Shown one piece after another: positions 51,204 to 64,000 of a stretch of DNA of 64,000 nt. Position 1 is the first letter of the stretch; the number at the start of each line of letters is the position of its first letter. The notes under the pieces were generated by a model. That model had not been told where the DNA came from. It was given only the letters and a program-made list of their open reading frames with translations, and did not search any database. A program made the position numbers and the translations under genes. The DNA comes from a virus: IMG/VR virus record IMGVR_UViG_3300045988_149625; one strand, 5' to 3'.

Positions 51204-51230
51204 ATAGGTAACAAAGAAAAGGAGGTTACT

Positions 51231-51584: not shown

Positions 51585-51585
51585 A

Positions 51586-51798: not shown

Positions 51799-51901
51799 TA
51801 ATGGACGAAAGTTACGTATTTTGCTTTTTCACGATTTGTTCCTTCACTTTTGCGTGTGTCACATTGTATTTTATGTATTTAATGGAAAGAGGTGATAAAT
51901 A

Positions 51902-52096: not shown

Positions 52097-52098
52097 AT

Positions 52099-52545
52099 AT
52101 GGAAACTTTAAAACTTTTTAATACTATTATGGACGAATTTTCTAATAAAACTGAACAAGAAAATTTCTTTAAAAAATTTGAGGAAGTTGTTGGAAAGCCT
52201 GTTATGCAAAAAGCTTTTTATCCAATGTATACATATCTTTACGGCGAGCATTTTAATAGTGAGCTTGCAACAGAGGCTGTACAGGGTATGGATAATATAA
52301 ACGGCACTAAAGGGGAAACTTATACATTCACTGCTTGTGTAGATGCAGCTGAAAAACTTGGTTTAAGTTGGGAAAAATATAATAAATTTGATTGGTACTT
52401 TACACTTAATATGATTGCAAGCGATTATGCAGGTATTGTAGAGGATGTAAAATTTGTTGAAATTGCAAAAGCTTGGCTTGAAGATAAAGACGTTCCAGAA
52501 GGGAAAGCTTTACGATATTGGTGGAAGGTGGTGAAGTGTAATTGA
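52099..52545 (+). CDS. hypothetical protein
   Basis: 148 aa. RBS gggggtataaatATG. Confidence 0.35.
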   Translation: METLKLFNTIMDEFSNKTEQENFFKKFEEVVGKPVMQKAFYPMYTYLYGEHFNSELATEAVQGMDNINGTKGETYTFTACVDAAEKLGLSWEKYNKFDWYFTLNMIASDYAGIVEDVKFVEIAKAWLEDKDVPEGKALRYWWKVVKCN

Positions 52546-52835
52546 TTACAGAGTTTCCTTATGATAATACCTTCGATACTATATTTAATAAGATTAAGAA
52601 TGGGGATACTATTCTAATTACAGATATTGAGGGCAAATTATTTTGGAACACAGTACAAGCACATGCACTAGAAAAAGGAGATTCCTATTTAAACGCAAGT
52701 AAAGCTAGTTATACTATTTTTGTTTATAAAGACATTACTTGGGGCGCAACTTTAAATAAGAATGATTCTACAATTAAATTATGCAAGGTGCGGAAAGTAG
52801 AATATGTTTATCATGCTTGGGAAGAAGTAGAATAA
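52542..52835 (+). CDS. hypothetical protein
   Basis: 97 aa. TTG start overlapping the upstream stop. Confidence 0.3.
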   Translation: MITEFPYDNTFDTIFNKIKNGDTILITDIEGKLFWNTVQAHALEKGDSYLNASKASYTIFVYKDITWGATLNKNDSTIKLCKVRKVEYVYHAWEEVE

Positions 52836-52837
52836 TA

Positions 52838-52866
52838 AAGCGCACTTGACATGGTGCGCTTTTTCT
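52838..52866 (+). terminator. rho-independent terminator whose loop carries the -35 of the next promoter
   Basis: aagcgcac-ttgacatg-gtgcgctt then ttttt. TTGACA lies at 52846-52851 and tgttataat ends at 52874. Confidence 0.45.
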
Positions 52867-52896
52867 GTTATAATAAGCGCATAAGGAGGTATTCAT

Positions 52897-53397
52897 ATGA
52901 GCGCAGAAGATTATATGTTTGAAAGTGGCGATTGGGCTGATTGGTCATATACATATAGCGGATACCATAAGCGCAGACGTTATAAACAATATGATAGTTT
53001 TGATTACAGTTTTTACAACAAGTCTTATACTACCAGTGAGCGTAGAGCTTATGGGTATAGAAAAGTACGTGCTTTTTATAGGGAGTTTTTAAAAGCACTC
53101 CCCTTAGCATTAAAGGAAAAAGCTTTTTATAAGCTTTTTAAACGTAATTTGCAGTATAGGGCACTTTCCTATACGGAAGATGTGCCAGAACAGTATGAAA
53201 ATGTTTTTACACGTCTGGTAATTAATTTGGCAACTACAGAAGATTTAACAAATGCTTGGTTAAATATGAATGTCTATGAATATTTTAGGAAACTTCCTAG
53301 AGTGTTGCAGGAAAGTTTGTTAAAAGGTTTTGTAGATAATTACAACTTAGATTTAAGCAAGCTGTCGCATATAAAGGAATATAATATTAATGCTTGA
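52897..53397 (+). CDS. hypothetical protein (Y/R-rich)
   Basis: 166 aa. RBS aaggaggtattcatATG. Confidence 0.35.
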   Translation: MSAEDYMFESGDWADWSYTYSGYHKRRRYKQYDSFDYSFYNKSYTTSERRAYGYRKVRAFYREFLKALPLALKEKAFYKLFKRNLQYRALSYTEDVPEQYENVFTRLVINLATTEDLTNAWLNMNVYEYFRKLPRVLQESLLKGFVDNYNLDLSKLSHIKEYNINA

Positions 53398-53422
53398 CAT
53401 TCTGTGAGGATTGCGTTATACT
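53394..53422 (+). promoter_or_regulatory. sigma-70-like promoter
   Basis: ttgaca at 53394-53399 and tatact at 53417-53422. Confidence 0.4.
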
Positions 53423-53449
53423 TAATATATCAAAGAAAGGGGCAATAAC

Positions 53450-53635
53450 ATGATTACTGTAAAAGTAACAACTACTAAACAACTATATTCCTTAATTAAC
53501 TGTTTATTCGAGCTACATAGGAATGAGCTTGAAACGGAGGAAAAGAAGCAGCTAACGGCTGTGACACTACTCCCATACAATCAATCTATCTATATGCCTG
53601 TAGAGCTTTATTTGAAGATAAGGGGGATATTATGA
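53450..53635 (+). CDS. hypothetical small protein
   Basis: RBS aaaggggcaataacATG. Confidence 0.35.
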   Translation: MITVKVTTTKQLYSLINCLFELHRNELETEEKKQLTAVTLLPYNQSIYMPVELYLKIRGIL

Positions 53636-54117
53636 TTTATCTTGTAGCCGACACACACTTCAACCATGATATGATGATTGAGAGTGGTTTGCGCCCAAAA
53701 GAGTATGAACGAAAGCTTATTAGAAATTGGAATAAGCAGGTAAAAGATGAAGATATTGTCATTCTCTTAGGGGATATTTCTTGGCGAAATGATTATAGTG
53801 TTCTTGAAAAATTGCATGGAAGAAAGATTCTTGTAAGAGGTAATCATGATAAACATTCCTGCGAGGCTTTTATGAAAGTCTTTGACTTTGCGTGTGATTC
53901 GTTTACAATGGACTACAAGGGAATTAATATCATTTTTACGCATAAACCATTAAAGCGTTTTTCACAAGATGTAAATATTCATGGACATTTACATGATAAA
54001 CCTGCTTTAAGAGATAAAAGACACATTCTTATTTCCCTGGAAAAAATGGGATACTGTGTGTTCCCTTTAAAGGGAATTATTAAGAAGTGGAAAAAGCTTA
54101 ATATGGAGGGATGCTAA
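53632..54117 (+). CDS. calcineurin-like metallophosphoesterase
   Basis: DTHFNH, GDISW, GNHD and GHLH metal-binding motifs. Confidence 0.55.
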   Translation: MIYLVADTHFNHDMMIESGLRPKEYERKLIRNWNKQVKDEDIVILLGDISWRNDYSVLEKLHGRKILVRGNHDKHSCEAFMKVFDFACDSFTMDYKGINIIFTHKPLKRFSQDVNIHGHLHDKPALRDKRHILISLEKMGYCVFPLKGIIKKWKKLNMEGC

Positions 54118-54846
54118 TTGATTTATATTACAGGTGATATTCACCAAAATTTTGATACTTGGAAGTTTGACGGAATTGATTTTAAATCAGAAGATTTCCT
54201 AATTATATGCGGAGATTTTGGTTGGGTATGGGCACATTCTTCTTTAAAGAAGCAAGTCTTAGATGAGAAGAAAAGACTACGTGCTTTTGTTCAAAAGCTG
54301 AAATGTACAGTGCTTTTCTGTGACGGAAACCACGAAAACTTTGCAAGATTGAATGATTATAAAGAATTTCCAGTTACAAAGCGTTGGGGTGGTAAGGTAC
54401 AAAAACTATGTAATAAATGTTATCATTTAGTACGTGGTGAAAGCTTCCTCATTGACGGCAAAAAATTCCTTGCTTTAGGTGGAGCGGAGTCACATGATAA
54501 ATTTCTTAGAACGCCAAATTTATCATGGTGGGAACAAGAAACGATTGAGGATGCAGAAGTTGAAAACGCTATAAAAAATTCTGACAATGTAGATTGTGTT
54601 ATAACACATTGTTGTCCTACATCTATTCTTACAGATTTATATGCAGCAAGGTGTATTGACAGTGTGCAGCCTACACTTTCCACGGAACAATTAGAAAAGT
54701 TGTATAAACATTTATGTACTAAAAATCATAAATTTAAATGGTTCTTTGGACATTATCATTTTGATAGGAATTTTACAAAGGGAGCAGGAGATTTCTATTT
54801 ACTGTATGATGCAATTTATTGTTTAGATACAGACAGCCATTTTTAA
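54118..54846 (+). CDS. calcineurin-like metallophosphoesterase (second, paralogous-type)
   Basis: GDIHQN, CGDFGW, DGNHENF and GHYHFD motifs. TTG start after ggaggg. Confidence 0.5.
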   Translation: MIYITGDIHQNFDTWKFDGIDFKSEDFLIICGDFGWVWAHSSLKKQVLDEKKRLRAFVQKLKCTVLFCDGNHENFARLNDYKEFPVTKRWGGKVQKLCNKCYHLVRGESFLIDGKKFLALGGAESHDKFLRTPNLSWWEQETIEDAEVENAIKNSDNVDCVITHCCPTSILTDLYAARCIDSVQPTLSTEQLEKLYKHLCTKNHKFKWFFGHYHFDRNFTKGAGDFYLLYDAIYCLDTDSHF

Positions 54847-54904
54847 TTGACAATCCCCCTTTGACGTGTTAGACTGATAAGGGGAATTTTTATAGGAGGT
54901 TAGA

Positions 54905-55090
54905 ATGAATTACGTTATCTTTATTTTAATTCTATGTATGGCAGCTATTGTTATTCTTACATTTAAAGCGCACCTTTTTATAAGCGGCGTTTTTGCAGCA
55001 ATATGTTTGTATCGAATAATTTTTGAAGCTTTTTCAAAAATAAGTGTTGACAAACAGTTTGTAAGATGCTATAATAAACACATCAAATGA
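54905..55090 (+). CDS. small membrane protein
   Basis: 61 aa with two hydrophobic segments. RBS ataggaggttagaATG. Confidence 0.35.
   Translation: MNYVIFILILCMAAIVILTFKAHLFISGVFAAICLYRIIFEAFSKISVDKQFVRCYNKHIK
55047..55075 (+). promoter_or_regulatory. sigma-70-like promoter inside 3' end of preceding small ORF
   Basis: ttgaca at 55047-55052 and tgctataat ending at 55075. Confidence 0.4.
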
Positions 55091-55969: not shown

Positions 55970-56025
55970 AACTTATGCGGTAATTATTTTACCGCATTTT
56001 TTCTTGCAAATTTATAAAAAAGTGC

Positions 56026-56054
56026 TTGACAGTATGCAAAAACTATGGTATTAT
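56026..56054 (+). promoter_or_regulatory. sigma-70-like promoter (AAAAGTGCTTGACA-N17-TATTAT)
   Basis: ttgaca at 56026-56031 and tattat at 56049-56054. Confidence 0.45.
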
Positions 56055-56112
56055 ATAGTCAAGGTAGTTAAAGGAAATAAACGTGCTACCAATTACATAA
56101 GGAGGCTATTAA

Positions 56113-56340
56113 ATGAAAACGAAGCAGAACAAAAAGCACATTGTAAACGTGCAGAGTGAAAGACAGATGATTCCAATTAAATCTAAAATTGAGAACGAAT
56201 TGCACAGTTATGTACTAATAGATAAAAGCAATGCAATTATTGTAAGAGGACGTGAGGACAAAATAGAATACACTATTATTGATAGCGGAAGAATTGCTTA
56301 CACACAATCAAGATATAGAGAAGTATGGGATAATGAATGA
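56113..56340 (+). CDS. hypothetical small protein (paralogue of 56428-56640)
   Basis: MKTKQNKKHIVN... versus MKRRQTKKHIVE.... RBS aaggaggctattaaATG. Confidence 0.4.
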   Translation: MKTKQNKKHIVNVQSERQMIPIKSKIENELHSYVLIDKSNAIIVRGREDKIEYTIIDSGRIAYTQSRYREVWDNE

Positions 56341-56427
56341 ACTTTTATCGGTACTACCGCTTCGGCGGTGGTACTCATTAAGAGCTTATTAAACTCTTAA
56401 ACTTAATAATTAGGAGGCGCAAAACAA

Positions 56428-56640
56428 ATGAAAAGACGACAAACTAAAAAGCACATTGTAGAACCAGAAAAAATAGGCTACAAAAAACAAAGTAGCAGCA
56501 GCGGCTATATTATCAAAAAGTACACACGCATGTATAACTGCTATCGAGGGGATTATACAGTAATAGTTAGTAACTACGCTACACTTAATGTCCTGCATTT
56601 ATACGGCAATCATGCAGATGTACATTTATACCGCTATTAA
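56428..56640 (+). CDS. hypothetical small protein (paralogue of 56113-56340)
   Basis: RBS ttaggaggcgcaaaacaaATG. Shared N-terminus. Confidence 0.4.
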   Translation: MKRRQTKKHIVEPEKIGYKKQSSSSGYIIKKYTRMYNCYRGDYTVIVSNYATLNVLHLYGNHADVHLYRY

Positions 56641-56660
56641 AGGAGGGGAGGCTATAAGAA

Positions 56661-56828
56661 ATGAAAGTAGTTTTAATGAAGGGTAATAGAGCTGTAATAA
56701 GTTATAAAGTATCTATGCTAAAGTCTATTAAATTTGATAATGATAACTTAATGTACATAGTGGAATTTAATGACGGCAGGAAACACCTTATTTCCGCATA
56801 TAACCATTATTTTGATTTTGTGGATTGA
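56661..56828 (+). CDS. small protein (55 aa), not in the ORF track
   Basis: RBS aaaggaggggagg then ATG. MKVVLMKGNRAVISYKVSMLKSIKFDNDNLMYIVEFNDGRKHLISAYNHYFDFVD. Confidence 0.35.
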   Translation: MKVVLMKGNRAVISYKVSMLKSIKFDNDNLMYIVEFNDGRKHLISAYNHYFDFVD

Positions 56829-56864
56829 CAAGCAGCGAAAAGTATTGTATAATCATTGTATAAT
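56825..56864 (+). promoter_or_regulatory. sigma-70-like promoter with tandemly duplicated -10 (cattgtataat x2)
   Basis: ttgaca at 56825-56830. tgtataat at 56846-56853 and again at 56857-56864. Confidence 0.4.
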
Positions 56865-56884
56865 CATTTTAGGAGGTATGAAAC

Positions 56885-57148
56885 ATGGCAAGACCAATTA
56901 ACAGTAAGAACAAAACACAAGGAAAGAAAATCTTTTTAACCCTGGCTGACGGCTCTAATTTATGGCAAGTTAGCATGACTTATACAGGAGGACACTTCTG
57001 TGTAACACACTACTTTGACGGCTTTCCAGATAAGCAGGAACGTTTGAAGCAAGCAGAAGCTTTAAAGCTTTTGCAAGACTTTTCAGATTTTGGAATTAAG
57101 GATATTCCTACACTGAAAAATTTCTTCAAAGTACGTGAAAAATGCTAA
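56885..57148 (+). CDS. hypothetical small protein
   Basis: RBS taggaggtatgaaacATG. Confidence 0.4.
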   Translation: MARPINSKNKTQGKKIFLTLADGSNLWQVSMTYTGGHFCVTHYFDGFPDKQERLKQAEALKLLQDFSDFGIKDIPTLKNFFKVREKC

Positions 57149-57212
57149 TTGTGTTTTTGGGGGCGCATTGAAATTTTGAAAAAAAAAATTGCTAGAATCA
57201 TAAATAAGTCAT

Positions 57213-57240
57213 TGACAAGTGTGTCAATTACTGTTATAAT
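57213..57240 (+). promoter_or_regulatory. sigma-70-like promoter
   Basis: ttgaca at 57213-57218 and tgttataat ending at 57240. Confidence 0.45.
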
Positions 57241-57286
57241 ATAGTCAAGTTAAGGGAATAAACTGAATACAGAGGAGGAAACAACG

Positions 57287-57514
57287 ATGTTGCAATAAAT
57301 TAAAAATAATGTTTATAATGCGGAAATAGTAGTAAGCGACGGCGAAAATCGCTACGCAGTATTCGAGCCAGATTGGAACGGCGAATATTGGGAAGCAATA
57401 CTTTGCACGGAAAGCGGCAACATTGTCAAAGGTAAAACTGTAAGATTGTTCCCAGTGCAGGAGTACAATGAAGAACATGATGTATGGGAAATAGTTGGTT
57501 ATGAAGTTAGATAA
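57287..57514 (+). pseudogene. small early ORF with in-frame TAA at codon 4 (ATG TTG CAA TAA then 72 open codons)
   Basis: Strong promoter and RBS (agaggagga) then ATG at 57287. In-frame TAA at 57296-57298. The frame stays open to a TAA at 57512-57514 (IKNNVYNAEIVVSDGENRYAVFEPDWNGEYWEAILCTESGNIVKGKTVRLFPVQEYNEEHDVWEIVGYEVR). No alternative canonical start in frame. Confidence 0.4.
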
Positions 57515-57578
57515 TGCCTAGCTATAAACCACCACCACCACAGCGCAAGCAGTGCTATTACGAAAGGAGAGAGAAAAC

Positions 57579-57800
57579 ATGAAATATTATTATATTGAAC
57601 GTATCAACACACAGGACGGCAGCCGTAATGGGTTCTATATCCAAAAGGCAGCTAATCTAGAAAAAGTCCTTTTTGCCTTTGACGAGGGCGAAAGCGACGG
57701 CGGCTTATACGCACCGCATATTGCCGAAATCACTGAAGCAGAATTTAATAATTTTCCGCATTTTATTCCCCAAAATTGGGTATATGGAATGGAGAACTGA
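57579..57800 (+). CDS. hypothetical small protein
   Basis: RBS gaaaggagagagaaaacATG (MKYYYIERINTQDG...). Confidence 0.4.
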   Translation: MKYYYIERINTQDGSRNGFYIQKAANLEKVLFAFDEGESDGGLYAPHIAEITEAEFNNFPHFIPQNWVYGMEN

Positions 57801-57818
57801 TATTTTATATAAAAAGTG

Positions 57819-57848
57819 CTTGACTTATTCATGGAAGTATGCTACAAT
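57819..57848 (+). promoter_or_regulatory. sigma-70-like promoter
   Basis: aaaaagtgcttgact and tacaat at 57843-57848. Confidence 0.4.
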
Positions 57849-57897
57849 ATAATCAAGGTTAGAGATAACCTACAATAAAGAAAAGGGGTAATTTAAC

Positions 57898-58449
57898 ATG
57901 AAAAACGATTACAAGAAAATTCAAGAGAAAATTGAGAAGGCTGTTGTAAAGCATCTTGATAGCGTAGTGACAAACACTGTTGAGCGCAATTCAATCTTAT
58001 ACAGTGATTATAATGAGTATGTACTTATGACCGCTTTTAACCACCAGGAATATTTCATTCCGAAAGATGAAGTGGTAGATTCAACAGTAATTGCTTATGG
58101 ACAGAAGGACATTGATTCTATGGTCGGCTTGACTGATAGGGTTATGAAGCAAGCAACGTGTGTATTGAAATACTTAGGTGTATATAAAGGCTACAAAAAA
58201 GAATACGTTCTGTTTGAAGGCGAAAATGATAATGGTTCTTACATGGTAGCTATTGACAAGAAAAACATTGCAGCTATTAAATATGATACAGTTTATGGCA
58301 GCGGTTCTAAACAGCCTGCATTATTTTATAATGAAGGTATTCCAGTGCTTTTGCAAGCTCCGTGTGTTTTGTCAAAAGAGAACTTAGAGGATATTAATGA
58401 AGATTTAAAGCATCTTAGAGCTATTAAACATTTCAAAATTAAACTGTAA
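57898..58449 (+). CDS. hypothetical protein
   Basis: 183 aa. RBS aaaaggggtaatttaacATG. Confidence 0.4.
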   Translation: MKNDYKKIQEKIEKAVVKHLDSVVTNTVERNSILYSDYNEYVLMTAFNHQEYFIPKDEVVDSTVIAYGQKDIDSMVGLTDRVMKQATCVLKYLGVYKGYKKEYVLFEGENDNGSYMVAIDKKNIAAIKYDTVYGSGSKQPALFYNEGIPVLLQAPCVLSKENLEDINEDLKHLRAIKHFKIKL

Positions 58450-58528
58450 TATTATTGGAGAGTAGTATATACTACTCTCTTTTCTTTTTGGGGCGATATT
58501 TTCAGAATATTAAATCACGAAAAAGTAG

Positions 58529-58557
58529 TTGACAGTGCTCTTATAGCATGGTATAAT
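58529..58557 (+). promoter_or_regulatory. sigma-70-like promoter
   Basis: ttgaca at 58529-58534 and tggtataat ending at 58557. Confidence 0.45.
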
Positions 58558-58591
58558 ATAACCAACAAAGGGGCAAGGGGGTAAATTAGAA

Positions 58592-58834
58592 ATGAAAACT
58601 TTTAAATTAAACAATCGTAGGCCTTTGGCAACGCTTTCCTTATCTGCATTTTATGCTTTAGGAATCTTTGACACAAATGATGTACAGTGTGACGAAGTAT
58701 TAGTTGCATTTTATAATGATGAAGAACGTGGGAAGCTGACATGGTGTAAGCTTTACGAAAATGCGGAAGGTGATGTCTTTTTTAAAAAATTCGGAAAAAG
58801 ATATTACTTAAAAGATTTTTTAAAAACACCTTGA
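58592..58834 (+). CDS. hypothetical small protein
   Basis: RBS aaggggcaagggggtaaattagaaATG. Confidence 0.4.
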   Translation: MKTFKLNNRRPLATLSLSAFYALGIFDTNDVQCDEVLVAFYNDEERGKLTWCKLYENAEGDVFFKKFGKRYYLKDFLKTP

Positions 58835-58859
58835 CAGTTATCAAAAACTATGCTATAAT
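58831..58859 (+). promoter_or_regulatory. sigma-70-like promoter
   Basis: ttgaca at 58831-58836 and tgctataat ending at 58859. Confidence 0.45.
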
Positions 58860-58891
58860 GAATACAACAAATGAAAGTGAGGTACTTAAAC

Positions 58892-59248
58892 ATGAATGAA
58901 AAAGAGATTTTAAAGATTTTGCAAGAAACACAAGATTTTGATTATGAAAATCTTGTAAAAGTATGGAACTCATATTGTGAGGAAAGAGGTTATCTTGAAA
59001 ACAAAATCTATAAGAACACTGTAGAAAATCTTGTAGCTTTGCTGCCCGAAAATCCGTTAGATGCGTTCTTAATGGGGCAATATGTAGGCGATACATATTT
59101 TCAAACTGATATGTGGTTGGCTGTTGACGAAAATAACAATGTATTCTCATTAACAGATGATATGTTGCTGGATAGTGCAATAAATATTTATAATTTGGCA
59201 ATCTATATTGCTAATTTTAATGCGGATAAACAGAGAGAGAAATTTTAG
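58892..59248 (+). CDS. hypothetical protein
   Basis: RBS aagtgaggtacttaaacATG. Internal start relative to the ORF track. Confidence 0.4.
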   Translation: MNEKEILKILQETQDFDYENLVKVWNSYCEERGYLENKIYKNTVENLVALLPENPLDAFLMGQYVGDTYFQTDMWLAVDENNNVFSLTDDMLLDSAINIYNLAIYIANFNADKQREKF

Positions 59249-59274
59249 ACGAATTATTTTAAGGAGGCTGTATT

Positions 59275-59709
59275 ATGTGGTTTGAAGTAATTGTGAAAGA
59301 TGCTGAAAAGGAAATTAAGCTTTCCTTGCCGTGTGATGAGCAGGAATTAAAAGACAGCTATACTATTGTAAGCTGTGAAAATAGCTGGGATTATGAGAAT
59401 GCGGATTTGACTTTGAAAGAGCTGAATAATCTTGCGCAAGATTTGCAAGATATTGAGGATAACGGCGATGAAGATTGGCTTGAAGCTTATATTGAAGCTA
59501 CTGGCTGTGATTTAAATATTGCCGTTGATAAATATGATACATCGACTTTTTATCATGATATGAGCTTGGTAGACGTTGCATATGATATTGTAGAAGAGTG
59601 TTACAACCTGCCAGAGAACTTAGAGCGTTATTTTGATTATGAAGCTTTTGCAAGAGATTTGGAGATTGAAGGTTATACAGAAACATACTATGGAACTATT
59701 TTAGTTTAA
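59275..59709 (+). CDS. hypothetical highly acidic protein (possible DNA-mimic/anti-defence candidate)
   Basis: 144 aa, D/E-rich throughout. RBS aaggaggctgtattATG. Confidence 0.4.
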   Translation: MWFEVIVKDAEKEIKLSLPCDEQELKDSYTIVSCENSWDYENADLTLKELNNLAQDLQDIEDNGDEDWLEAYIEATGCDLNIAVDKYDTSTFYHDMSLVDVAYDIVEECYNLPENLERYFDYEAFARDLEIEGYTETYYGTILV

Positions 59710-59781
59710 TAACTTGTGTATATTTGCAGGGTACAAATTTTGTGCCTTGCAGAAGTTATATAAATTATTTATGAAAAACAC

Positions 59782-59810
59782 TTGACAGTGTGTTGTTTAT
59801 ATGGTAATAT
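59782..59810 (+). promoter_or_regulatory. sigma-70-like promoter
   Basis: ttgaca at 59782-59787 and tggtaatat ending at 59810. Confidence 0.45.
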
Positions 59811-59841
59811 ATAACTAACGAAAGGTAAGGAGGTAATAATC

Positions 59842-60228
59842 ATGTTATTCGATTTTTATTATGGTGAAGCAGAAAAAATGTCACCTACTGTTTATGAAGG
59901 TTTACCTATTTACAGTGAATCTGACTTAATTTCCCTCATTAGAGAGAAGTGCGATGATGATTTGGCAGAAGCTGTACAGCGTTATGTAGACTCTTTGAAG
60001 GCACAAGCAGCACCTGCACCGCAACAAAAAGACAGTGATGAGGACGCTTATTTGGCAATGTTGGAAAGTCGCTGCACACAATTACAAGATGTAGAAGAGG
60101 AAATTAGAGATATAGAAGATATTCTCTTTGACCAACTTTATAATCAAAAACGTACTAATAGAAAAGCTTTAGAAAAAGCTTGCGATAGCCTGGGCGACTT
60201 GCGGGAAAGTATTCACGAAAGTTTATAA
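59842..60228 (+). CDS. hypothetical acidic protein
   Basis: 128 aa. RBS aaggtaaggaggtaataatcATG. Confidence 0.4.
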   Translation: MLFDFYYGEAEKMSPTVYEGLPIYSESDLISLIREKCDDDLAEAVQRYVDSLKAQAAPAPQQKDSDEDAYLAMLESRCTQLQDVEEEIRDIEDILFDQLYNQKRTNRKALEKACDSLGDLRESIHESL

Positions 60229-60237
60229 AAAAAATAG

Positions 60238-60266
60238 TTGACAAACAATTCATTGTATAGTAAAAT
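60238..60266 (+). promoter_or_regulatory. sigma-70-like promoter
   Basis: ttgaca at 60238-60243 and taaaat at 60261-60266. Confidence 0.4.
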
Positions 60267-60298
60267 ATAAACAACGAAAGACAAGGAGGACAATAAAC

Positions 60299-60580
60299 AT
60301 GACAATTTTTGAAGAAAGATTAATGGGTTTTGTGCTTGAAGGTGTTTCCTTTGAAGATTTCCCGCTTAGCGATATTAAGGTAATTTGTACCGATGTTTAT
60401 GGAAATCGTACAATCGTGCTTGTTGGCGATTATGGTAAATCTACATTTGCTTGCAAGCCTGCTTTTTCGGACATATGGTTAATTTCGTATGACTGTATGG
60501 AAGGTGAAACAGAAAATTATGTAGAAGCTGTTCTTCACAGGATTTTGGCTACACACGGAAAAACTTTTAAATATCTGTAA
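60299..60580 (+). CDS. hypothetical small protein
   Basis: RBS aaggaggacaataaacATG. Confidence 0.4.
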   Translation: MTIFEERLMGFVLEGVSFEDFPLSDIKVICTDVYGNRTIVLVGDYGKSTFACKPAFSDIWLISYDCMEGETENYVEAVLHRILATHGKTFKYL

Positions 60581-60588
60581 AAAAGTGC

Positions 60589-60617
60589 TTGACAACTTGT
60601 TGGCTATATGTTATTAT
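60589..60617 (+). promoter_or_regulatory. sigma-70-like promoter (AAAAGTGCTTGACAA...)
   Basis: ttgaca at 60589-60594 and tgttattat ending at 60617. Confidence 0.45.
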
Positions 60618-60648
60618 ATAGCCAACAAGATAAAAGGGGGTACTAAAC

Positions 60649-60942
60649 ATGTACACAAGAAGAATAATTATAGTCGACAACGGATTTGCCCATGCACTTA
60701 TGGGCAAGGATATTGACAAAGTTGTTGCAGGCTTGCAGGAGGCTGCAAAACAAATCGGCTTTGCAGCAAGCTTTGATGCAAGCTTTGCAAAGGTCAATTT
60801 CTGGGGGCAACACTACTCTAAAGAGCGTCAAGTGCTTTATCCCTTTGACGTTAGATTTTTCAATGGTGTTGAGAATATCCGTATCTATGGAAAAAGCAAT
60901 GAAAAAAACATCATTGAAGAAGTAAAAATTATAACTTTTTAG
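60649..60942 (+). CDS. hypothetical small protein
   Basis: RBS aaagggggtactaaacATG. Confidence 0.4.
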   Translation: MYTRRIIIVDNGFAHALMGKDIDKVVAGLQEAAKQIGFAASFDASFAKVNFWGQHYSKERQVLYPFDVRFFNGVENIRIYGKSNEKNIIEEVKIITF

Positions 60943-60971
60943 TTGACATTGCCTAAAAAGTATGATATTAT
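60943..60971 (+). promoter_or_regulatory. sigma-70-like promoter
   Basis: ttgaca at 60943-60948 and tgatattat ending at 60971. Confidence 0.4.
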
Positions 60972-60996
60972 AGATACAACAAAGGGAGGTAATAAA

Positions 60997-61287
60997 ATGA
61001 AAATTTTCGATTGGCAAGATATTCCGATGATTGGTAAGAACGTATATGACGTGTTTGATGAGCTTTTTTACCGCTCCGAAAAAGCAGGTATGGAAACACA
61101 AGATAACAACGTCATTATGGACGTTGCAATTTTAAATACATACCTTTGGAATTGTCTTTACACTGAAGCTCCAAAGGATAAATTGGTAGACTTCCAGATT
61201 GACTTTTTTGACGGCGAACAAGGTGTTATCCTTTATGGAAAATGTCATTATGTTGGCGGCAAGATTGAATCGGTAAAAATTGGATAA
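60997..61287 (+). CDS. hypothetical small protein
   Basis: RBS aaagggaggtaataaaATG (MKIFDWQDIPMIGK...). Confidence 0.4.
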   Translation: MKIFDWQDIPMIGKNVYDVFDELFYRSEKAGMETQDNNVIMDVAILNTYLWNCLYTEAPKDKLVDFQIDFFDGEQGVILYGKCHYVGGKIESVKIG

Positions 61288-61295
61288 AAAAGTGC

Positions 61296-61324
61296 TTGAC
61301 AATTAATTAAGCATGTGTTATAAT
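61296..61324 (+). promoter_or_regulatory. sigma-70-like promoter (AAAAGTGCTTGACAA...)
   Basis: ttgaca at 61296-61301 and tgtgttataat ending at 61324. Confidence 0.45.
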
Positions 61325-61357
61325 ATGTACAACAAAAGAAATTGGAGGTAATTTAAC

Positions 61358-61600
61358 ATGATTAAAGATTTTAATTACAAAGGTGCTGCAAAGTTGGCGG
61401 TATGCGAATTTCTTGGCAATGACATTAACGGCAATGGTCGTTACAGAGTTGTTGTTATCATTGATAACAAGGTGTACACGGCAAGCGGTAAAGGTTATTA
61501 CCGCAGTTATGAAACATCTAACGGCGATACCTTGCGTGATGTAAAAGTTGCAATCCGCCGCATGAAGGGCGGCAATTATCGCCTGGACGATTTAGAATAA
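61358..61600 (+). CDS. hypothetical small protein
   Basis: RBS ggaggtaatttaacATG. Confidence 0.4.
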   Translation: MIKDFNYKGAAKLAVCEFLGNDINGNGRYRVVVIIDNKVYTASGKGYYRSYETSNGDTLRDVKVAIRRMKGGNYRLDDLE

Positions 61601-61607
61601 AATTTTG

Positions 61608-61637
61608 AACTCCCCGTTATGGGGAGTTTTCTTTTTG
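61608..61637 (+). terminator. rho-independent terminator
   Basis: aactcccc-gttat-ggggagtt then ttctttttg. Confidence 0.55.
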
Positions 61638-61650
61638 TTAAAGATATTGC

Positions 61651-61712
61651 CAGCGCGCCCAGATTTGGCTTATAAGCGTCTGAAATGTAAAATAGGTATA
61701 AATATATGCGTA
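61651..61712 (+). repeat. conserved ~60-bp intergenic element, copy B (cagatttggcttataagcgt...ataggtataaat)
   Basis: See copy A at 51092-51150. Same context: after a terminator and before a promoter. Confidence 0.6.
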
Positions 61713-61792
61713 AACGAAAAAAGCTGCTTAGAACGCAAATATGGACGTGTGACAAGGTTTTCAATTTTTTTAAAAAATTTGGGGAAAAGTAG

Positions 61793-61821
61793 TTGACAAC
61801 TTATGTATGTTATGGTACTAT
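61793..61821 (+). promoter_or_regulatory. sigma-70-like promoter
   Basis: ttgaca at 61793-61798 and tggtactat ending at 61821. Confidence 0.45.
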
Positions 61822-61867
61822 ATACATGTAGCAAGGATAGAGCTACAAACAAAGGAGGTAACAATCA

Positions 61868-62104
61868 ATGGAACAAAATGTAAAAATCTTTATGCAAGAT
61901 AATTGCACAAAAGCAGAAGCTGAACACTATATCAAGAATGGCAGCGAAGTAGTCAATGTTGCCGATTGGGAACAGTATGCAAAAGATAATGACGTGCGCA
62001 ATGAGGATGGCGAATACATCACGCTTGATGATTTGCGTGGGGAAAGAGATATTTCCTTTGTCCAATTTGAGGGGCAAGAATACATCTTGTTGTATGTTTT
62101 GTAA
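61868..62104 (+). CDS. hypothetical small protein
   Basis: RBS aaggaggtaacaatcaATG. Confidence 0.4.
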   Translation: MEQNVKIFMQDNCTKAEAEHYIKNGSEVVNVADWEQYAKDNDVRNEDGEYITLDDLRGERDISFVQFEGQEYILLYVL

Positions 62105-62116
62105 GGAGGTAATAAA

Positions 62117-62407
62117 ATGTTTGTAACGTGTGAAGAACTGAATAAGAGCTTGACTGTAAGTGTTCGTTTTTTCAAGGAGGGAAATTGGACACCAGATGAG
62201 AGTAACGATTTGCTTTCCGACATGTCTACTTATGACGGAGCGGACATTTCCGCAGAATATTTTGAAAACTTAAAAGTGTTCTTGGAATCTGAAGAAGATA
62301 CTCTCCAACGTGGCGGCCGCTCTGATGATTGGTTGAGTAACATGACTTTGGATGAACTAGGTTTTGAAGGCATTAATATTGATATTGTAGAAGATGAGCT
62401 TGAATAA
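62117..62407 (+). CDS. hypothetical highly acidic small protein
   Basis: 96 aa, D/E-rich. RBS aaggaggtaataaaATG. Confidence 0.4.
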   Translation: MFVTCEELNKSLTVSVRFFKEGNWTPDESNDLLSDMSTYDGADISAEYFENLKVFLESEEDTLQRGGRSDDWLSNMTLDELGFEGINIDIVEDELE

Positions 62408-62433
62408 TTTTTCCATAAAACTTCAAAAAGTAT

Positions 62434-62462
62434 TTGACAACTTGCAAGGTAAATGCTATAAT
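62434..62462 (+). promoter_or_regulatory. sigma-70-like promoter
   Basis: ttgaca at 62434-62439 and gctataat ending at 62462. Confidence 0.45.
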
Positions 62463-62525
62463 ATAATCAAAGAGCAGGGGAAAACAAAATTTCCCCTGCC
62501 AAACAAAACAAAGGAGTTGTATAAC

Positions 62526-62924
62526 ATGCAAGTAAACATTGTAAAAACTATTGAAAAAATTGAAGGTCTGAAATTTCGTTCTACCTGGCAAAAAGCCGTA
62601 AAAGAGGACGCAAGCTGGTTGCTTTGGGAACTCATGGACGGACGCTATGATGATATTGTAGAGGATGTTATGACTTTTAAAAACATTGAAGGCTTTGAAC
62701 GTGCTTTGCGTAACGGCGCTGAAACATGGAAAGACTTCTCTGAAGGCGGCAGCGCACTTATCTCTGATGAAGATATTGCTAAACATTATTGCACGGCAAG
62801 CGAATTGAAAAAGACTCACAACGGCGAAAAAGCTCCAAATAGTAGAGAGAACTGGCTTGATGTACAAGCAAGAGCATTTTGGCAAGCTGCTTTACTGGTC
62901 AAACAAAATTTAGTAACTGAATAA
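62526..62924 (+). CDS. hypothetical protein
   Basis: RBS aaaggag then ATG at 62526 (MQVNIVKTIEK...). Confidence 0.4.
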   Translation: MQVNIVKTIEKIEGLKFRSTWQKAVKEDASWLLWELMDGRYDDIVEDVMTFKNIEGFERALRNGAETWKDFSEGGSALISDEDIAKHYCTASELKKTHNGEKAPNSRENWLDVQARAFWQAALLVKQNLVTE

Positions 62925-62928
62925 TCCT

Positions 62929-62961
62929 AAAGCTCCTCCTTGTTGTGGAGCTTTTCTTTTT
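62929..62961 (+). terminator. rho-independent terminator
   Basis: aaagctcc-tccttgttgt-ggagcttt then tctttttcc. Confidence 0.5.
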
Positions 62962-63022
62962 CCGGCGGCAGGATGTTCCACGTGAAACATTAGAAAAAAC
63001 TTGCAATTTTTATAAAAAAGTG

Positions 63023-63051
63023 TTGACAAAGTGCGGTAAAGCTGCTATAAT
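63023..63051 (+). promoter_or_regulatory. sigma-70-like promoter
   Basis: ttgaca at 63023-63028 and gctataat ending at 63051. Confidence 0.45.
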
Positions 63052-63100
63052 AAAAGCATAGACAAACAGTCTAATAAATAAGGAAAGAGGTAATTTAACA

Positions 63101-63370
63101 ATGAAAAAAGCAACTGAAATTAAGGAACATTATTTTGAGGTGTTGGCTAAAGCGCAGCCGTTTATGTGGGGCTTGCCTATGGAGATTGAGCAAAATCTCA
63201 AAAAATTTAACGAACAATTTGACAAGCTTGTAGAAAAAGAACTTGCTGCTGAATGTGAAAGATACTATTGGAAAGATTGGGTACAAGAGGCAAAAACGCT
63301 CGCATGGGTACTTAATAGGGACGTATACAAAGATTGTGAAAAACTTTATCAAGAGAGTCACAAGGAATAA
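63101..63370 (+). CDS. hypothetical small protein
   Basis: RBS aaagaggtaatttaacaATG. Confidence 0.4.
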   Translation: MKKATEIKEHYFEVLAKAQPFMWGLPMEIEQNLKKFNEQFDKLVEKELAAECERYYWKDWVQEAKTLAWVLNRDVYKDCEKLYQESHKE

Positions 63371-63376
63371 AAAATA

Positions 63377-63409
63377 ATGCGCTTACTTTTGTAGGCGCAT
63401 TTTCTTTTT
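63377..63409 (+). terminator. rho-independent terminator
   Basis: atgcgc-ttacttttgtag-gcgcat then tttcttttt. Confidence 0.5.
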
Positions 63410-63432
63410 ACCGCAATTTTTGAAAAAAGATG

Positions 63433-63461
63433 TTGACTTTGCGGAAAAGGTATGCTATAAT
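63433..63461 (+). promoter_or_regulatory. sigma-70-like promoter
   Basis: ttgact at 63433-63438 and tgctataat ending at 63461. Confidence 0.4.
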
Positions 63462-63494
63462 ATAGTCAAGTTAAAGTTAGGAGGTAACAAAAGC

Positions 63495-63626
63495 ATGGAT
63501 GATTATGGTTACGATATTCCAGAACGCTTTAAAGCGGCACTAGAGGAATGGAAAAGAGATAATCCTGATATTCAGAAGCTTTGTGAAGAGCTTGACAACA
63601 AAGTTATTATTAAGGAGGTAATGTAA
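63495..63626 (+). CDS. hypothetical very small protein (43 aa)
   Basis: RBS aggaggtaacaaaagcATG. Confidence 0.3.
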   Translation: MDDYGYDIPERFKAALEEWKRDNPDIQKLCEELDNKVIIKEVM

Positions 63627-63627
63627 C

Positions 63628-63978
63628 ATGAAAAAAAGATATTATGTACTTTGGGACAATGACGAATTGCAAGGCTGTACAGCGGAAAGCAAGGCGGCGG
63701 CAATGAAAGCAGCAAGAGCTTATAAACGTGCCTGGTGTACCGCTGATAAGCCGCTGAAGGCGTTTACAGAGGATGAAGCAATAGCTTACAGAAAACATAA
63801 ATGCTTGCAAAACATAGCGGACATGAAGGAAAGTTGCAGCTATTGGGACGATTTGAAAAAGTACGTTCCGCTGTATGAAAGAGGTTACAAAGTGCTTGAA
63901 AAGCTTTTAAAGCATAACCATGATATTGACAAGTCTAATCATTTAATTCTTGCGATATTATCCAACATGCCAAGGTAA
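63628..63978 (+). CDS. hypothetical protein
   Basis: 116 aa. RBS aaggaggtaatgtaacATG. Confidence 0.4.
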   Translation: MKKRYYVLWDNDELQGCTAESKAAAMKAARAYKRAWCTADKPLKAFTEDEAIAYRKHKCLQNIADMKESCSYWDDLKKYVPLYERGYKVLEKLLKHNHDIDKSNHLILAILSNMPR

Positions 63979-64000
63979 ATTGTTCCCTGCTTCGGCAGGG

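What the first reader, a model, noticed from the sequence alone, without database searches (positions are those of the whole stretch)
55980..63980. Array of ~17 near-identical promoter-RBS-small-gene cassettes (host-takeover-like early region)
From about 56 kb to the window end, almost every small ORF (43-183 aa) is preceded 30-60 bp upstream by the same promoter, AAAAGTGCTTGACAA-N17-TATAAT-like. It usually has TG at -15/-14 and an A-tract UP-like sequence. Each ORF also has the same RBS/start context, GGAGGTAA(TTT)AAC(A)ATG. Several cassettes end in rho-independent terminators. Promoters also occur inside the 3' ends of upstream ORFs (58831, 55047, 50223).

This degree of repetition suggests cassettes spread by recombination. 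Several products are extremely acidic (59275-59709, 62117-62407, 59842-60228, 55109-55576), in the manner of Ocr/ArdA-type DNA mimics. Two others are paralogues (56113 and 56428, both MK..Q.KKHIV...). This is a candidate reservoir of anti-defence and host-takeover genes.
Basis: seen in the sequence. Interest (0 to 1): 0.65.

Follow-up and report, generated by a model that had tools for sequence, protein, structure and literature searches.

The report
Phage early-gene cassette array, shuffled at promoters
This is the accessory early-gene region of an uncultured ~100-kb phage of a Gram-positive-type host: 15 near-consensus host promoters in 8 kb drive 21 small genes of mostly unknown function, one of them an ArdA anti-restriction protein, and related phages gain and lose these genes by breaks that fall in the repeated promoters and ribosome-binding sites, a pattern known from other phages.

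Summary
In 55980-63980 there are 15 sigma-A/sigma-70-type promoters, all on the + strand, against 0.17 expected from shuffles. They share an A/T-tract UP region, TTGACA, a 17-bp spacer, a TRTG extended -10 and TATAAT. They drive 21 small ORFs with strong Shine-Dalgarno sites, and at least four units end in intrinsic terminators.

The array starts at about 49.9 kb. In relatives it runs about 4 kb past the window end.

Across 11 related ~100-kb phage contigs, the -35 hexamer is 99% conserved, TG 96% and the -10 hexamer 94%. The spacers are 84% conserved, which is the pattern expected of working promoters.

Gene content is cassette-like. About 10 of 25 ORF families are in all 12 genomes, and 26 further families occur only in relatives. 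Of 48 indel events, 20 have junction homology above a random-position null. Thirteen have both ends in promoter or RBS repeats, leaving one hybrid copy behind.

ORF 59275-59709 is an ArdA anti-restriction protein by Pfam, PHROG and predicted fold. The other acidic ORFs have no detectable family. The proposed paralogues share only 11-12 N-terminal residues.

[quoted passage not shown] This is a new member of a known kind.

The parts
56026..56054 (+). Promoter P56026 (TTGACA-17-TATTAT, TG). Drives ORFs 56113-56340, 56428-56640 and 56661-56828.
   Evidence: orthologous promoter conserved in 7 relatives
56825..56853 (+). Promoter P56825 (12/12 hexamer match, no TG). The -35 contains the TGA stop of ORF 56661-56828. 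Drives ORF 56885-57148.
   Evidence: conserved in 11 relatives
57212..57240 (+). Promoter P57212, with a 7-bp hairpin over the -35. Drives the disrupted ORF 57287-57514 (in-frame TAA at codon 4) and ORF 57579-57800.
   Evidence: segment 57139-57810 is absent from 10 of 11 relatives
57820..57848 (+). Promoter P57820. Drives ORF 57898-58449 (183 aa, present in 12/12 genomes), followed by terminator 58457-58480.
58529..58557 (+). Promoter P58529. Drives ORF 58592-58834 (80 aa).
58831..58859 (+). Promoter P58831. The -35 overlaps the TGA stop of ORF 58592-58834. Drives ORF 58892-59248 and the ArdA gene.
59275..59709 (+). ArdA-family anti-restriction protein (144 aa, pI 4.05, net charge -30). It is a short-N-terminus variant.
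   Evidence: Pfam PF07275 E 5e-13; phrog_2059; alignment with ArdA homologues keeps the LPE..RYFDYEAFARDL motif; AF2 pLDDT 90.3; Foldseek hit 2w82 E 3e-5, TM 0.62
59782..59810 (+). Promoter P59782. Drives acidic ORF 59842-60228 (128 aa).
60238..60266 (+). Promoter P60238. Drives ORF 60299-60580. It is also the site (60229/60230) where relatives carry an extra 359-587-bp promoter+ORF cassette.
60589..60617 (+). Promoter P60589, with a 14-bp inverted repeat enclosing the -10 (CTTGTTGGCTATAT/ATATAGCCAACAAG). Drives ORF 60649-60942.
   Evidence: MFE -22.3, z -5.8
60943..60971 (+). Promoter P60943, abutting the TAG stop of the upstream ORF. Drives ORF 60997-61287, a weak paralogue of 60649-60942. 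Relatives carry an extra 181-454-bp cassette at 60941/60942.
61296..61324 (+). Promoter P61296. Drives ORF 61358-61600, followed by terminator 61607-61629.
61793..61821 (+). Promoter P61793. Drives ORFs 61868-62104 and 62117-62407 (acidic, 96 aa). Relative L021 has a 320-bp cassette inserted at the -10 box.
61852..62102 (+). RBS+ORF cassette (ORF 61868-62104), flanked by AAGGAGGTAA direct repeats at 61852-61861 and 62103-62112. It is precisely absent from 4 relatives, which keep a single repeat copy.
   Evidence: score 13, p = 0.006
62434..62462 (+). Promoter P62434, with a 5'-UTR hairpin at 62473-62500. Drives ORF 62526-62924.
63021..63430 (+). Complete cassette: promoter P63023, ORF 63101-63370 and terminator 63376-63401. 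It is flanked by 25-nt promoter-upstream repeats and is absent from L027, L028 and L033.
   Evidence: score 13, p = 0.006
63433..63461 (+). Promoter P63433. Drives ORFs 63495-63626 and 63628-63978.
63479..63612 (+). RBS+ORF cassette (ORF 63495-63626), flanked by AGGAGGTAA repeats. Absent from L021 and L022.
   Evidence: p = 0.013
49879..55075 (+). Upstream part of the same array. Promoters at 49879, 50223, 51175, 52846, 53394, 54847 and 55047 drive small ORFs, including two metallophosphatase-like genes and the acidic ORF 55109-55576.

Best explanation
**What it is.** The window is part of an uncultured, ~100-kb, siphovirus-like phage with all genes on one strand. Its promoter and RBS type indicate a low-GC Gram-positive (Bacillota-type) host. 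From about 49.9 kb to beyond the window end lies its accessory early-gene region.

**How it is expressed (inferred).** Each unit is a near-consensus host sigma-A promoter followed by a short leader, a strong Shine-Dalgarno site and 1-3 small genes. The promoter has an A/T-tract UP element, TTGACA, a 17-bp spacer, a TRTG extended -10 and TATAAT. Some units are closed by an intrinsic terminator or a promoter-overlapping stem-loop. Because the promoters need only unmodified host RNA polymerase, the genes should be transcribed immediately and strongly after DNA entry.

**What the products do.** One product is an ArdA DNA mimic that blocks type I restriction (family membership shown, activity inferred). 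The others are ORFans. They are presumed to act in anti-defence or host takeover, by analogy with the SPO1, T5 and T4 early regions.

**How it evolves.** The repeated promoter and RBS sequences also serve as short homologies at which cassettes are deleted, inserted or replaced. This leaves one hybrid regulatory element behind, so gene content turns over quickly while every newcomer is automatically expressed. The junction pattern is shown. The mechanism, homologous or microhomology recombination as proposed for PeSLs, is inferred.
For: **Promoters are real and enriched.** There are 15 on the + strand against 0.17 expected, and 0 on the - strand. Each sits 22-63 nt upstream of an SD-ATG.

**Promoters are under selection.** In 105 orthologous promoter comparisons across 11 relatives, identity is 99.2% in the -35, 96.2% in TG and 94.4% in the -10. 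It is 83.9% in the spacer and about 92% in the flanks.

**Phage context.** The window encodes a tape measure protein, a tail fibre, DnaB, PolA and an RNA ligase. Relatives are 97-105-kb contigs.

**ArdA.**

**Cassette turnover.** Of the ORF families in W 54905-63978, 10 of 25 are in all 12 genomes and the rest are in 1-11. A further 26 families occur only in relatives within the same interval.

**Junctions.** Of 48 distinct indels of at least 100 bp, 20 have junction homology with p < 0.05 against 1000 random placements, where 2.4 are expected. Eight have p < 0.01. Thirteen have both ends in a promoter or RBS. Explicit examples:
- AAGGAGGTAA/AAGGAGGTAA around 61852-62102.
- AGGAGGTAA repeats around 63479-63612.
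- GTTGACA repeats at 60941/60942.
- 25-nt promoter-upstream repeats around 63021-63430.

**Products are unrelated.** Profile all-vs-all comparison gives only 60649/60997 at E 7.7e-5 within the window.

**Leaders.** They show subfamily structure consistent with exchange or duplication.

**Published analogues.** The SPO1 host-takeover module has small early genes with strong promoters and RBSs (PMC6873191). PeSL cassettes are described in PMC2839356 and PMC4122927.
Against: - There are no transcript, timing or protein data, so 'early' is an inference.
- Similar sigma-A-type promoters also precede replication genes and one structural-region gene (2747, 25483, 27715, 31936, 41009, 42408). The promoter type alone therefore does not define a temporal class.
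- Only 1 of 21 ORFs has an assigned function.
- Junctions at gene boundaries could reflect selection for viable genomes rather than a recombination preference. Every boundary carries the motif, so the two explanations cannot be separated here.
- Twenty-eight of 48 indels show no significant homology. One is the 1071-bp deletion that removes ArdA in L020.
- Some alignment-defined events are ambiguous in A/T-rich sequence.
- Stem-loops overlapping the promoters are strong in only a few cases and only weakly enriched overall (mean z -1.1 against -0.4, p = 0.013).
- The host is not identified.
Confidence: 0.75

Rival explanations
1. Convergent consensus only. The promoters and RBSs look alike simply because each is independently selected for maximal strength on host RNA polymerase and ribosomes. 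Cassette indels arise by ordinary illegitimate recombination, and selection keeps only those that fall at gene boundaries. On this view the repeats have no mechanistic role in shuffling.
For: Upstream and spacer similarity is fully explained by column consensus (p = 0.27 and 0.10). Of 48 indels, 28 lack significant junction homology, including the 1071-bp and 267-bp events. The null used random positions, not random gene boundaries.
Against: Many junctions retain exactly one hybrid copy of a 9-25-nt repeat. This is the footprint of repeat-mediated recombination. Leaders show pairwise subfamilies beyond the consensus (p = 0.001). Junction homology reaches p < 0.05 in 20 events where 2.4 are expected.
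Confidence: 0.2
2. Moron-like independent acquisitions. Each unit was imported from elsewhere as a self-contained promoter-gene-terminator 'moron', so the array would be a graveyard of foreign insertions rather than a native early region.
For: Several units are bounded by their own promoter and terminator. Most ORFs are ORFans with patchy distribution.
Against: All promoters share one clade-specific extended consensus and RBS context. All point the same way. GC content and skew match the rest of the genome. Homologues of the tested ORF 62117-62407 are confined to this phage clade.
Confidence: 0.07
3. T5- or SPO1-like terminal pre-early module. The array lies at a physical genome end or in a terminal repeat and enters the cell first. 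The conserved ORF-free, repeat-dense 2.2-kb region just downstream in relatives would act as an injection-stop, packaging or origin element.
For: Relatives all have a conserved ~2.2-kb untranslated region with phased palindromes directly after the array. This resembles the arrangement described for the T5 iss region next to poorly conserved pre-early ORFs (bioRxiv 10.1101/866236). The SPO1 module lies in the terminal redundancy (PMC6873191).
Against: No termini are known. Contig ends in relatives fall at inconsistent places. No homologues of T5 A1, A2 or dmp were identified. The repeat region could equally be a replication origin. The region lies outside the window.
Confidence: 0.1
4. Promoter array as a sigma-A/RNA polymerase sink. 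The main function would be to titrate host RNA polymerase away from host genes, with the ORFs secondary.
For: The density of near-perfect promoters is very high (1.9 per kb).
Against: Every promoter is correctly spaced before a strong RBS and a conserved ORF. Ten of the 25 ORF families in 54905-63978 are present in all 12 genomes. One ORF has a clear function (ArdA).
Confidence: 0.03

Closest known systems
Host-takeover module of Bacillus phage SPO1 (genes 37-60; Stewart et al. 1998, as summarised in PMC6873191)
   Same: It is a ~12-kb cluster of about two dozen small genes in short operons. Each operon has a strong sigma-A early promoter and a strong RBS. The host is Gram-positive. Some products are very acidic DNA mimics, for example Gp44 (PMC8208478).
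   Different: No sequence homology to SPO1 genes was detected (PHROG scans). This phage has a siphovirus-like tail module and is not a Herelleviridae myovirus. A location in a terminal redundancy is not established. Toxicity and shut-off functions are untested. Cassette turnover at promoter/RBS repeats has not, to my knowledge, been described for SPO1.
PeSL (promoter-early stem-loop) regulatory cassettes of T4-like phages (Arbiol et al. 2010, PMC2839356; Comeau et al. 2014, PMC4122927)
   Same: Repeated strong sigma-70-type promoters with an AT-rich upstream region are concentrated in hyperplastic regions upstream of ORFans. Indels and replacements between close relatives are bounded by these repeats. 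Some promoters are overlapped by stem-loops at -35, in the spacer or at -10, as in the PeSL subclasses (here at 49879, 52846, 57212 and 60589).
   Different: The host type and phage lineage differ: here a Firmicute-type promoter with the TRTG motif, in a siphovirus-like ~100-kb phage. The stem-loop is not a constant component. In several units a separate upstream terminator replaces it. About half of the repeat-bounded junctions lie in the RBS (AAGGAGGTAA) rather than the promoter. Mini-circles have not been looked for.
Pre-early (first-step-transfer) region of phage T5 (bioRxiv 10.1101/866236)
   Same: It is a block of poorly conserved small early ORFs next to a conserved, untranslated, repeat- and palindrome-rich region. 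The phage is a large siphovirus of about 100-120 kb.
   Different: No A1, A2 or dmp homologues were identified. Terminal repeats and two-step injection are not testable here. The repeat region lies outside the window.
ArdA anti-restriction proteins (Pfam PF07275; Tn916 ORF18, PDB 2w82)
   Same: ORF 59275-59709 matches the family profile and the fold. It is highly acidic and keeps the conserved C-terminal LPE..RYFDYEAFARDL motif.
   Different: It has 144 aa rather than ~165, with a shortened N-terminal domain that lacks the NLGKYNEGEL segment. It is phage-borne rather than carried on a conjugative element. Activity and dimerisation are untested.

Membership tests
Sigma-A/sigma-70 housekeeping promoters (Gram-positive type) | -35 TTGACA and -10 TATAAT separated by 17 +/- 1 bp | tested here: met
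   All 15 sites in 55980-63980 have a 17-bp spacer and no more than 2 mismatches in 12 hexamer positions. Seven are perfect.
Sigma-A/sigma-70 housekeeping promoters (Gram-positive type) | Extended -10 / '-16 region' TRTG motif and an upstream A/T-tract (UP-like) | tested here: met
   TG is present at 13 of 15 sites. For the 22 dense-region promoters, T at -17 occurs in 16 of 22, and A-tracts lie at -9..-5 and -20..-16 relative to the -35 start.
Sigma-A/sigma-70 housekeeping promoters (Gram-positive type) | Transcription initiates there with host holoenzyme | not testable with these tools
   Only indirect evidence is available. Across relatives the hexamers and TG are 94-99% conserved against 84% for the spacer.
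PeSL-type mobile regulatory cassettes | Repeated strong early-type promoter with an AT-rich upstream region, concentrated in variable regions upstream of ORFans | tested here: met
PeSL-type mobile regulatory cassettes | A stem-loop (terminator/attenuator) as an integral part of each motif | tested here: inconclusive
   Strong stem-loops occur at 49879, 52846, 60589 (and 2747, 31936). Over all 28 promoters mean z is -1.1 against -0.4 for controls (p = 0.013), and many have none. Separate upstream terminators are present at 4 or more units.
PeSL-type mobile regulatory cassettes | Indels and replacements between close relatives are bounded by the repeated motifs | tested here: met
   Thirteen of 48 events have both ends in a promoter or RBS. 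Twenty of 48 have junction homology at p < 0.05.
PeSL-type mobile regulatory cassettes | Excised mini-circles carrying one hybrid motif | not testable with these tools
   This needs PCR or read-level data from infected cells or virions.
Phage host-takeover / pre-early module (SPO1- or T5-type) | Cluster of small genes with strong host-type promoters and strong RBSs | tested here: met
Phage host-takeover / pre-early module (SPO1- or T5-type) | Expressed first after infection; products inhibit host processes | not testable with these tools
   There are no expression or toxicity data. Only ArdA has an assigned role.
Phage host-takeover / pre-early module (SPO1- or T5-type) | Location in the terminal redundancy or first-injected end | not testable with these tools
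   The termini are unknown. Contig ends of relatives are inconsistent.
ArdA (PF07275) | Significant match to the family profile | tested here: met
   Pfam 50.4 bits against a cut-off of 27, E 5e-13; phrog_2059 E 4.6e-14
ArdA (PF07275) | ArdA fold | tested here: met
   AF2 pLDDT 90.3, pTM 0.81. 2w82 is the sole significant PDB match: E 3e-5, probability 1.00, TM 0.62, 163 aligned columns.
ArdA (PF07275) | Strongly acidic, DNA-mimicking surface | tested here: met
   26% Asp+Glu, net charge -30, pI 4.05. The surface distribution was not analysed.
ArdA (PF07275) | Inhibits type I restriction-modification enzymes | not testable with these tools
   This needs a restriction-alleviation assay.
ArdA/Ocr-type DNA mimic (other acidic ORFs 55109, 59842, 61868, 62117) | Detectable sequence or profile similarity to a known DNA-mimic family | tested here: not met
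   Pfam and PHROG give no hits. hhalign against the ArdA alignment gives probability 0.3-10.6%. The 62117 model was of low confidence, pLDDT 63.
Integron-like gene cassette array | Integrase plus attC recombination sites flanking promoterless cassettes | tested here: not met
   No recombinase family was found among the ORFs scanned in 49.9-64 kb. The cassettes carry their own promoters. The repeats are promoter and RBS sequences, not attC-like imperfect palindromes.

The most novel reading that the evidence does not exclude
The array and the conserved ~2.2-kb ORF-free, palindrome- and iteron-dense region that follows it in all relatives (just beyond the window end) might form a T5-like first-entering 'pre-early' module in a Gram-positive phage. 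Anti-defence cassettes would be swapped in and out through promoter- and RBS-mediated excision and reintegration, in the manner of PeSL mini-circles. That would make it a self-expressing gene-capture platform rather than a passive variable region.
Probability: 0.1. Interest if true: 0.65.

Novelty: new member of a known kind. Interest (0 to 1): 0.38.

Why it matters
The region is a compact, naturally diversified library of small phage genes. About 50 families occur across 12 genomes. Each is wired for immediate high expression in a Gram-positive-type host, and one confirmed ArdA gene sits among them. This marks the others as good candidates for new anti-defence or host-shutoff factors.

The comparative data also extend the idea of regulatory repeats as recombination hot spots. 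That idea was described for the PeSLs of T4-like phages of Gram-negative hosts. Here it applies to an unrelated phage lineage and to ribosome-binding sites as well as promoters.

The architecture itself is not new. Strong early promoters in front of small ORFans are textbook for SPO1, T5 and T4.

Tried and rejected
- **Close cultured relative.** Megablast of the region against 50,697 phage records found nothing. The closest PolA is only 30% identical (Bacillus phage BCD7).
- **Exact-protein look-ups.** Look-ups of the window's own contig failed, so the source and host remain unknown.
- **Small ORFs other than ArdA.** Pfam and PHROG scans of most of the other small ORFs (ORF 63495-63626 was not scanned, and six upstream ORFs were scanned in neither library) gave only one weak hit, phrog_34079 of unknown function for 58592. 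PDB sequence searches for 62117 and 55109 found nothing.
- **Structure of acidic ORF 62117-62407.** With 26 homologues the model reached only pLDDT 63, so no fold search was run on it.
- **Other acidic ORFs as divergent ArdA.** The best hhalign result is E 0.003, probability 10.6%, among 630 comparisons, which is not significant.
- **Widespread paralogy among cassettes.** This was rejected. Within the window only 60649/60997 are related, and weakly. The 63628 family has split paralogues just past the window end.
- **Integron-like system.** Rejected, because there is no integrase or attC.
- **Known RNA families.** There were no Rfam hits in the whole window at gathering thresholds. No tRNAs were found.
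- **First all-vs-all hhalign run.** It timed out and was repeated on a subset.

Full report
**1. Observation**

Reading 55000-64000 and scanning the whole window shows that the promoter repeat is real and far beyond chance.
- Perfect TTGACA-N17-TATAAT occurs 16 times on the + strand and never on the - strand.
- With a slightly relaxed criterion (<=1 mismatch, or 2 mismatches with TG at -15/-14), 55980-63980 has 15 sites on + and 0 on -. Dinucleotide shuffles give 0.17 +/- 0.41.
- The -35 starts are 56026, 56825, 57212, 57820, 58529, 58831, 59782, 60238, 60589, 60943, 61296, 61793, 62434, 63023 and 63433.
- Seven more sites (49879-55047) extend the same array upstream. Only about seven lie in the other 50 kb.
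- The -10 of each ends 22-63 nt before an ATG preceded by a strong Shine-Dalgarno site.

The aligned consensus extends beyond the hexamers. It has phased A- and T-tracts upstream, AAAAAGTG(C/T) immediately 5' of TTGACA, T.TG before TATAAT (the Gram-positive '-16' TRTG motif, from my own knowledge), and ATAnnCAA after the -10.

GGAGGTAA occurs seven times, all on + and all inside this 8 kb. Terminator-like hairpins with T-runs lie at 55975, 58457, 61607 and 63376.

Promoters inside the 3' ends of upstream ORFs are confirmed. In two cases the TGA stop is part of the TTGACA hexamer. The count is 15 promoters driving 21 ORFs, not ~17 cassettes.

**2. Context**

All ORFs of at least 150 aa lie on the + strand, apart from two spurious antisense ORFs nested in larger genes. 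The window encodes:
- a tape measure protein, a J-like tail fibre and a tail protein;
- a reverse transcriptase and a radical SAM protein;
- helicases, DnaB and PolA;
- a queuine tRNA-ribosyltransferase-like protein;
- an intein-containing RNA ligase.

GC is 33-39% with uniform skew. There is no close cultured relative.

Related contigs of 97-105 kb were recovered from IMG/VR, JGI, ENA and Logan assemblies at 80-92% nucleotide identity across the array. In these, the + strand array continues about 4 kb past the window end. It is followed by a conserved ~2.2-kb ORF-free repeat region, a few more + strand genes, and then a convergent - strand block.

**3. Are they functional promoters?**

This cannot be tested directly, but the comparative signal is clear. 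Over 105 orthologous promoter-by-genome comparisons:

| Element | Identity to the window |
|---|---|
| -35 hexamer | 99.2% |
| TG | 96.2% |
| -10 hexamer | 94.4% |
| 17-bp spacer | 83.9% |
| Flanks | ~92% |

Positions 5-11 nt after the -10 (CAAC/CAAG, around the expected start site) are 97-100% conserved.

**4. What the genes are**

ORF 59275-59709 is an ArdA-family anti-restriction protein.
- Pfam PF07275 scores 50.4 bits against a cut-off of 27, and phrog_2059 also matches.
- The C-terminal LPE..RYFDYEAFARDL motif is conserved, and the N-terminal domain is shortened.
- The AF2 model has pLDDT 90.3. Its only significant PDB neighbour is Tn916 ArdA 2w82, with E 3e-5 and TM 0.62.

The other ORFs scanned, including the very acidic 55109, 59842, 61868 and 62117, have no Pfam or PHROG family. 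The single weak exception is phrog_34079, of unknown function, for 58592. They show no significant profile similarity to ArdA. Homologues of 62117-62407 are confined to this phage clade, and its model was of low confidence.

The products are essentially unrelated to one another. Within the window only 60649/60997 are weak paralogues (E 7.7e-5). ORFs 56113 and 56428 share just 11-12 N-terminal residues.

**5. Cassette behaviour**

A gene-family map of the array in 12 genomes shows a syntenic backbone with unit-level presence/absence, replacement and duplication.
- Ten of 25 window families (54905-63978) are universal. The rest occur in 1-11 genomes.
- Twenty-six further families occupy the same interval only in relatives.
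- ArdA is missing from two genomes. It is a 161-aa version at a different array position in two others.

Pairwise alignments give explicit junctions.
- The 251-bp unit 61852-62102 (RBS plus ORF 61868-62104) is flanked by AAGGAGGTAA on both sides and is precisely absent from four relatives, which keep one copy.
- The 134-bp unit 63479-63612 is flanked by AGGAGGTAA.
- Extra promoter+ORF units in relatives sit between duplicated (A)5..TTGACA sequences at 60229/60230 and 60941/60942.
- One unit is inserted within the -10 box of P61793.
- The complete promoter-ORF-terminator unit 63021-63430 is flanked by 25-nt promoter-upstream repeats.

A systematic all-pairs analysis found 48 distinct indels of at least 100 bp with well-aligned flanks. 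Twenty have junction homology exceeding 95% of 1000 random placements of the same length, where 2.4 are expected. Eight exceed 99%. Thirteen have both ends classified as promoter or RBS.

Not all events fit. The 1071-bp deletion that removes ORF 58892 and ArdA in L020, and the 267-bp difference at 57271-57550, have no repeat.

A column-permutation test shows that upstream and spacer similarity among the promoters is explained by a shared consensus. The transcribed leaders, however, fall into subfamilies (59782/60238, 55047/58831, 57212/63433; p = 0.001-0.014). That is consistent with exchange or duplication of the regulatory halves.

**6. Mechanism proposed**

- *Shown:* the anatomy, conservation pattern, cassette turnover, junction repeats and ArdA family membership.
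- *Inferred:* the promoters are used by unmodified host sigma-A RNA polymerase immediately after DNA entry. They give a burst of many small proteins that neutralise defence (ArdA against type I R-M) and probably redirect host functions. Terminators and promoter-overlapping stem-loops insulate the units. The repeated 9-25-nt promoter and RBS sequences act as substrates for homologous or microhomology recombination. Cassettes are therefore lost, gained and replaced while always landing behind a working promoter and RBS.

One alternative cannot be excluded with these data: that selection merely filters random indels to gene boundaries.

**7. Comparison with known systems**

- *SPO1 host-takeover module.* This is functionally and architecturally the closest system. 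It has 26 small early genes in a 12.4-kb terminal region, with promoters and RBSs typical of highly expressed genes (PMC6873191). Its acidic Gp44 is a DNA mimic (PMC8208478).
- *PeSL cassettes of T4-like phages.* In evolutionary behaviour these match closely. They combine strong sigma-70 promoters, an AT-rich upstream region and stem-loops at variable positions relative to -35/-10. They are concentrated upstream of ORFans in hyperplastic regions, and indels between close relatives are bounded by the motifs (PMC2839356; PMC4122927).
- *Differences here.* The host type and phage lineage differ. The stem-loop is not constant. RBS-RBS junctions are about as common as promoter-promoter ones.
- *Literature coverage.* In the searchable literature, PeSLs are discussed only for T4-like phages and cited in passing for a few other phages and archaeal viruses, none Gram-positive. 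This is weak evidence of absence.
- *T5 pre-early region.* The arrangement of variable ORFs next to a conserved untranslated repeat region (bioRxiv 10.1101/866236) resembles what lies just beyond the window in relatives. Termini and two-step injection cannot be tested.

**8. Verdict**

This is a new example, in an uncultured Bacillota-type phage clade, of a known kind of phage region. Its main value is as a well-delimited, naturally shuffled set of candidate anti-defence and host-takeover genes. It also provides comparative support for regulatory-repeat-mediated cassette exchange outside the T4-like phages.

Noticed in passing
window 17036-20709: A diversity-generating retroelement. The reverse transcriptase is at 19417-20709 (phrog_1423). 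The variable repeat 18830-18952 lies at the 3' end of tail-protein ORF 17036-18970. The template repeat is at 19046-19168. Of 26 mismatches, 24 are at template adenines.
   Followed up: partly
window 47714-49873 (about 48311-49384): The RNA ligase gene is interrupted by a LAGLIDADG intein. The ~1075-bp segment is precisely absent from relative L002.
   Followed up: partly
window 57287-57514: Downstream of promoter P57212, the ORF reads ATG TTG CAA TAA and then stays open in the same frame for 71 codons. It is either a nonsense-disrupted gene or a sequencing error. The surrounding 672 bp (57139-57810) are absent from 10 of 11 relatives.
   Followed up: partly
window 2747, 31936, 41009: A second promoter flavour occurs outside the array: GGGTA immediately 5' of TTGACA instead of the A-tract. 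At least 2747 and 31936 also have a strong stem-loop (z -4.7, -2.6): across the -10 at 2747, in the spacer from the -35 at 31936. This may be a differently regulated temporal class.
   Followed up: no
L020:11050-13180 (relatives; about 2.5 kb beyond the window end): A conserved ~2.2-kb ORF-free region sits directly after the array. It has TAGGAAnnnTTCCTA palindromes at 51-bp spacing and many TGAATAGTCTGA-type repeats. It is 79-95% identical in nine relatives. It could be an origin, a packaging site or a T5-iss-like element.
   Followed up: partly
window promoters, positions +5 to +11 after the -10: The CAAC/CAAG motif around the expected transcription start is 97-100% conserved across orthologous promoters. 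That is higher than the -10 itself. The function is unknown; it might be an initiating-nucleotide preference or a regulator site.
   Followed up: no
window 62473-62500: An 11-bp G+C-rich hairpin (GCAGGGGAAA...TTTCCCCTGC) lies in the 5' UTR between P62434 and ORF 62526-62924. The simple scan scores it as a terminator on the - strand.
   Followed up: no
L013:3625-4066 (207-kb IMG/VR contig): Six consensus promoters lie at ~90-bp spacing on one strand in a distantly related jumbo-size contig, and there are 25 such promoters in 20 kb.
   Followed up: no
L021:13801-14064 and L022:13821-14075: Relatives carry a second, divergent copy of the 56885-57148 gene family, about 45-50% nt identity by eye from the alignment. 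It is a separate promoter-driven cassette between the 60649 and 60997 homologues. The window lacks it.
   Followed up: partly
window 53632-54846: Two adjacent metallophosphatase-like genes lie within the promoter-dense region. ORF 53632-54117 matches Pfam Metallophos_2, and homologues of 54118-54846 are annotated Metallophos. Both are conserved in all relatives.
   Followed up: no
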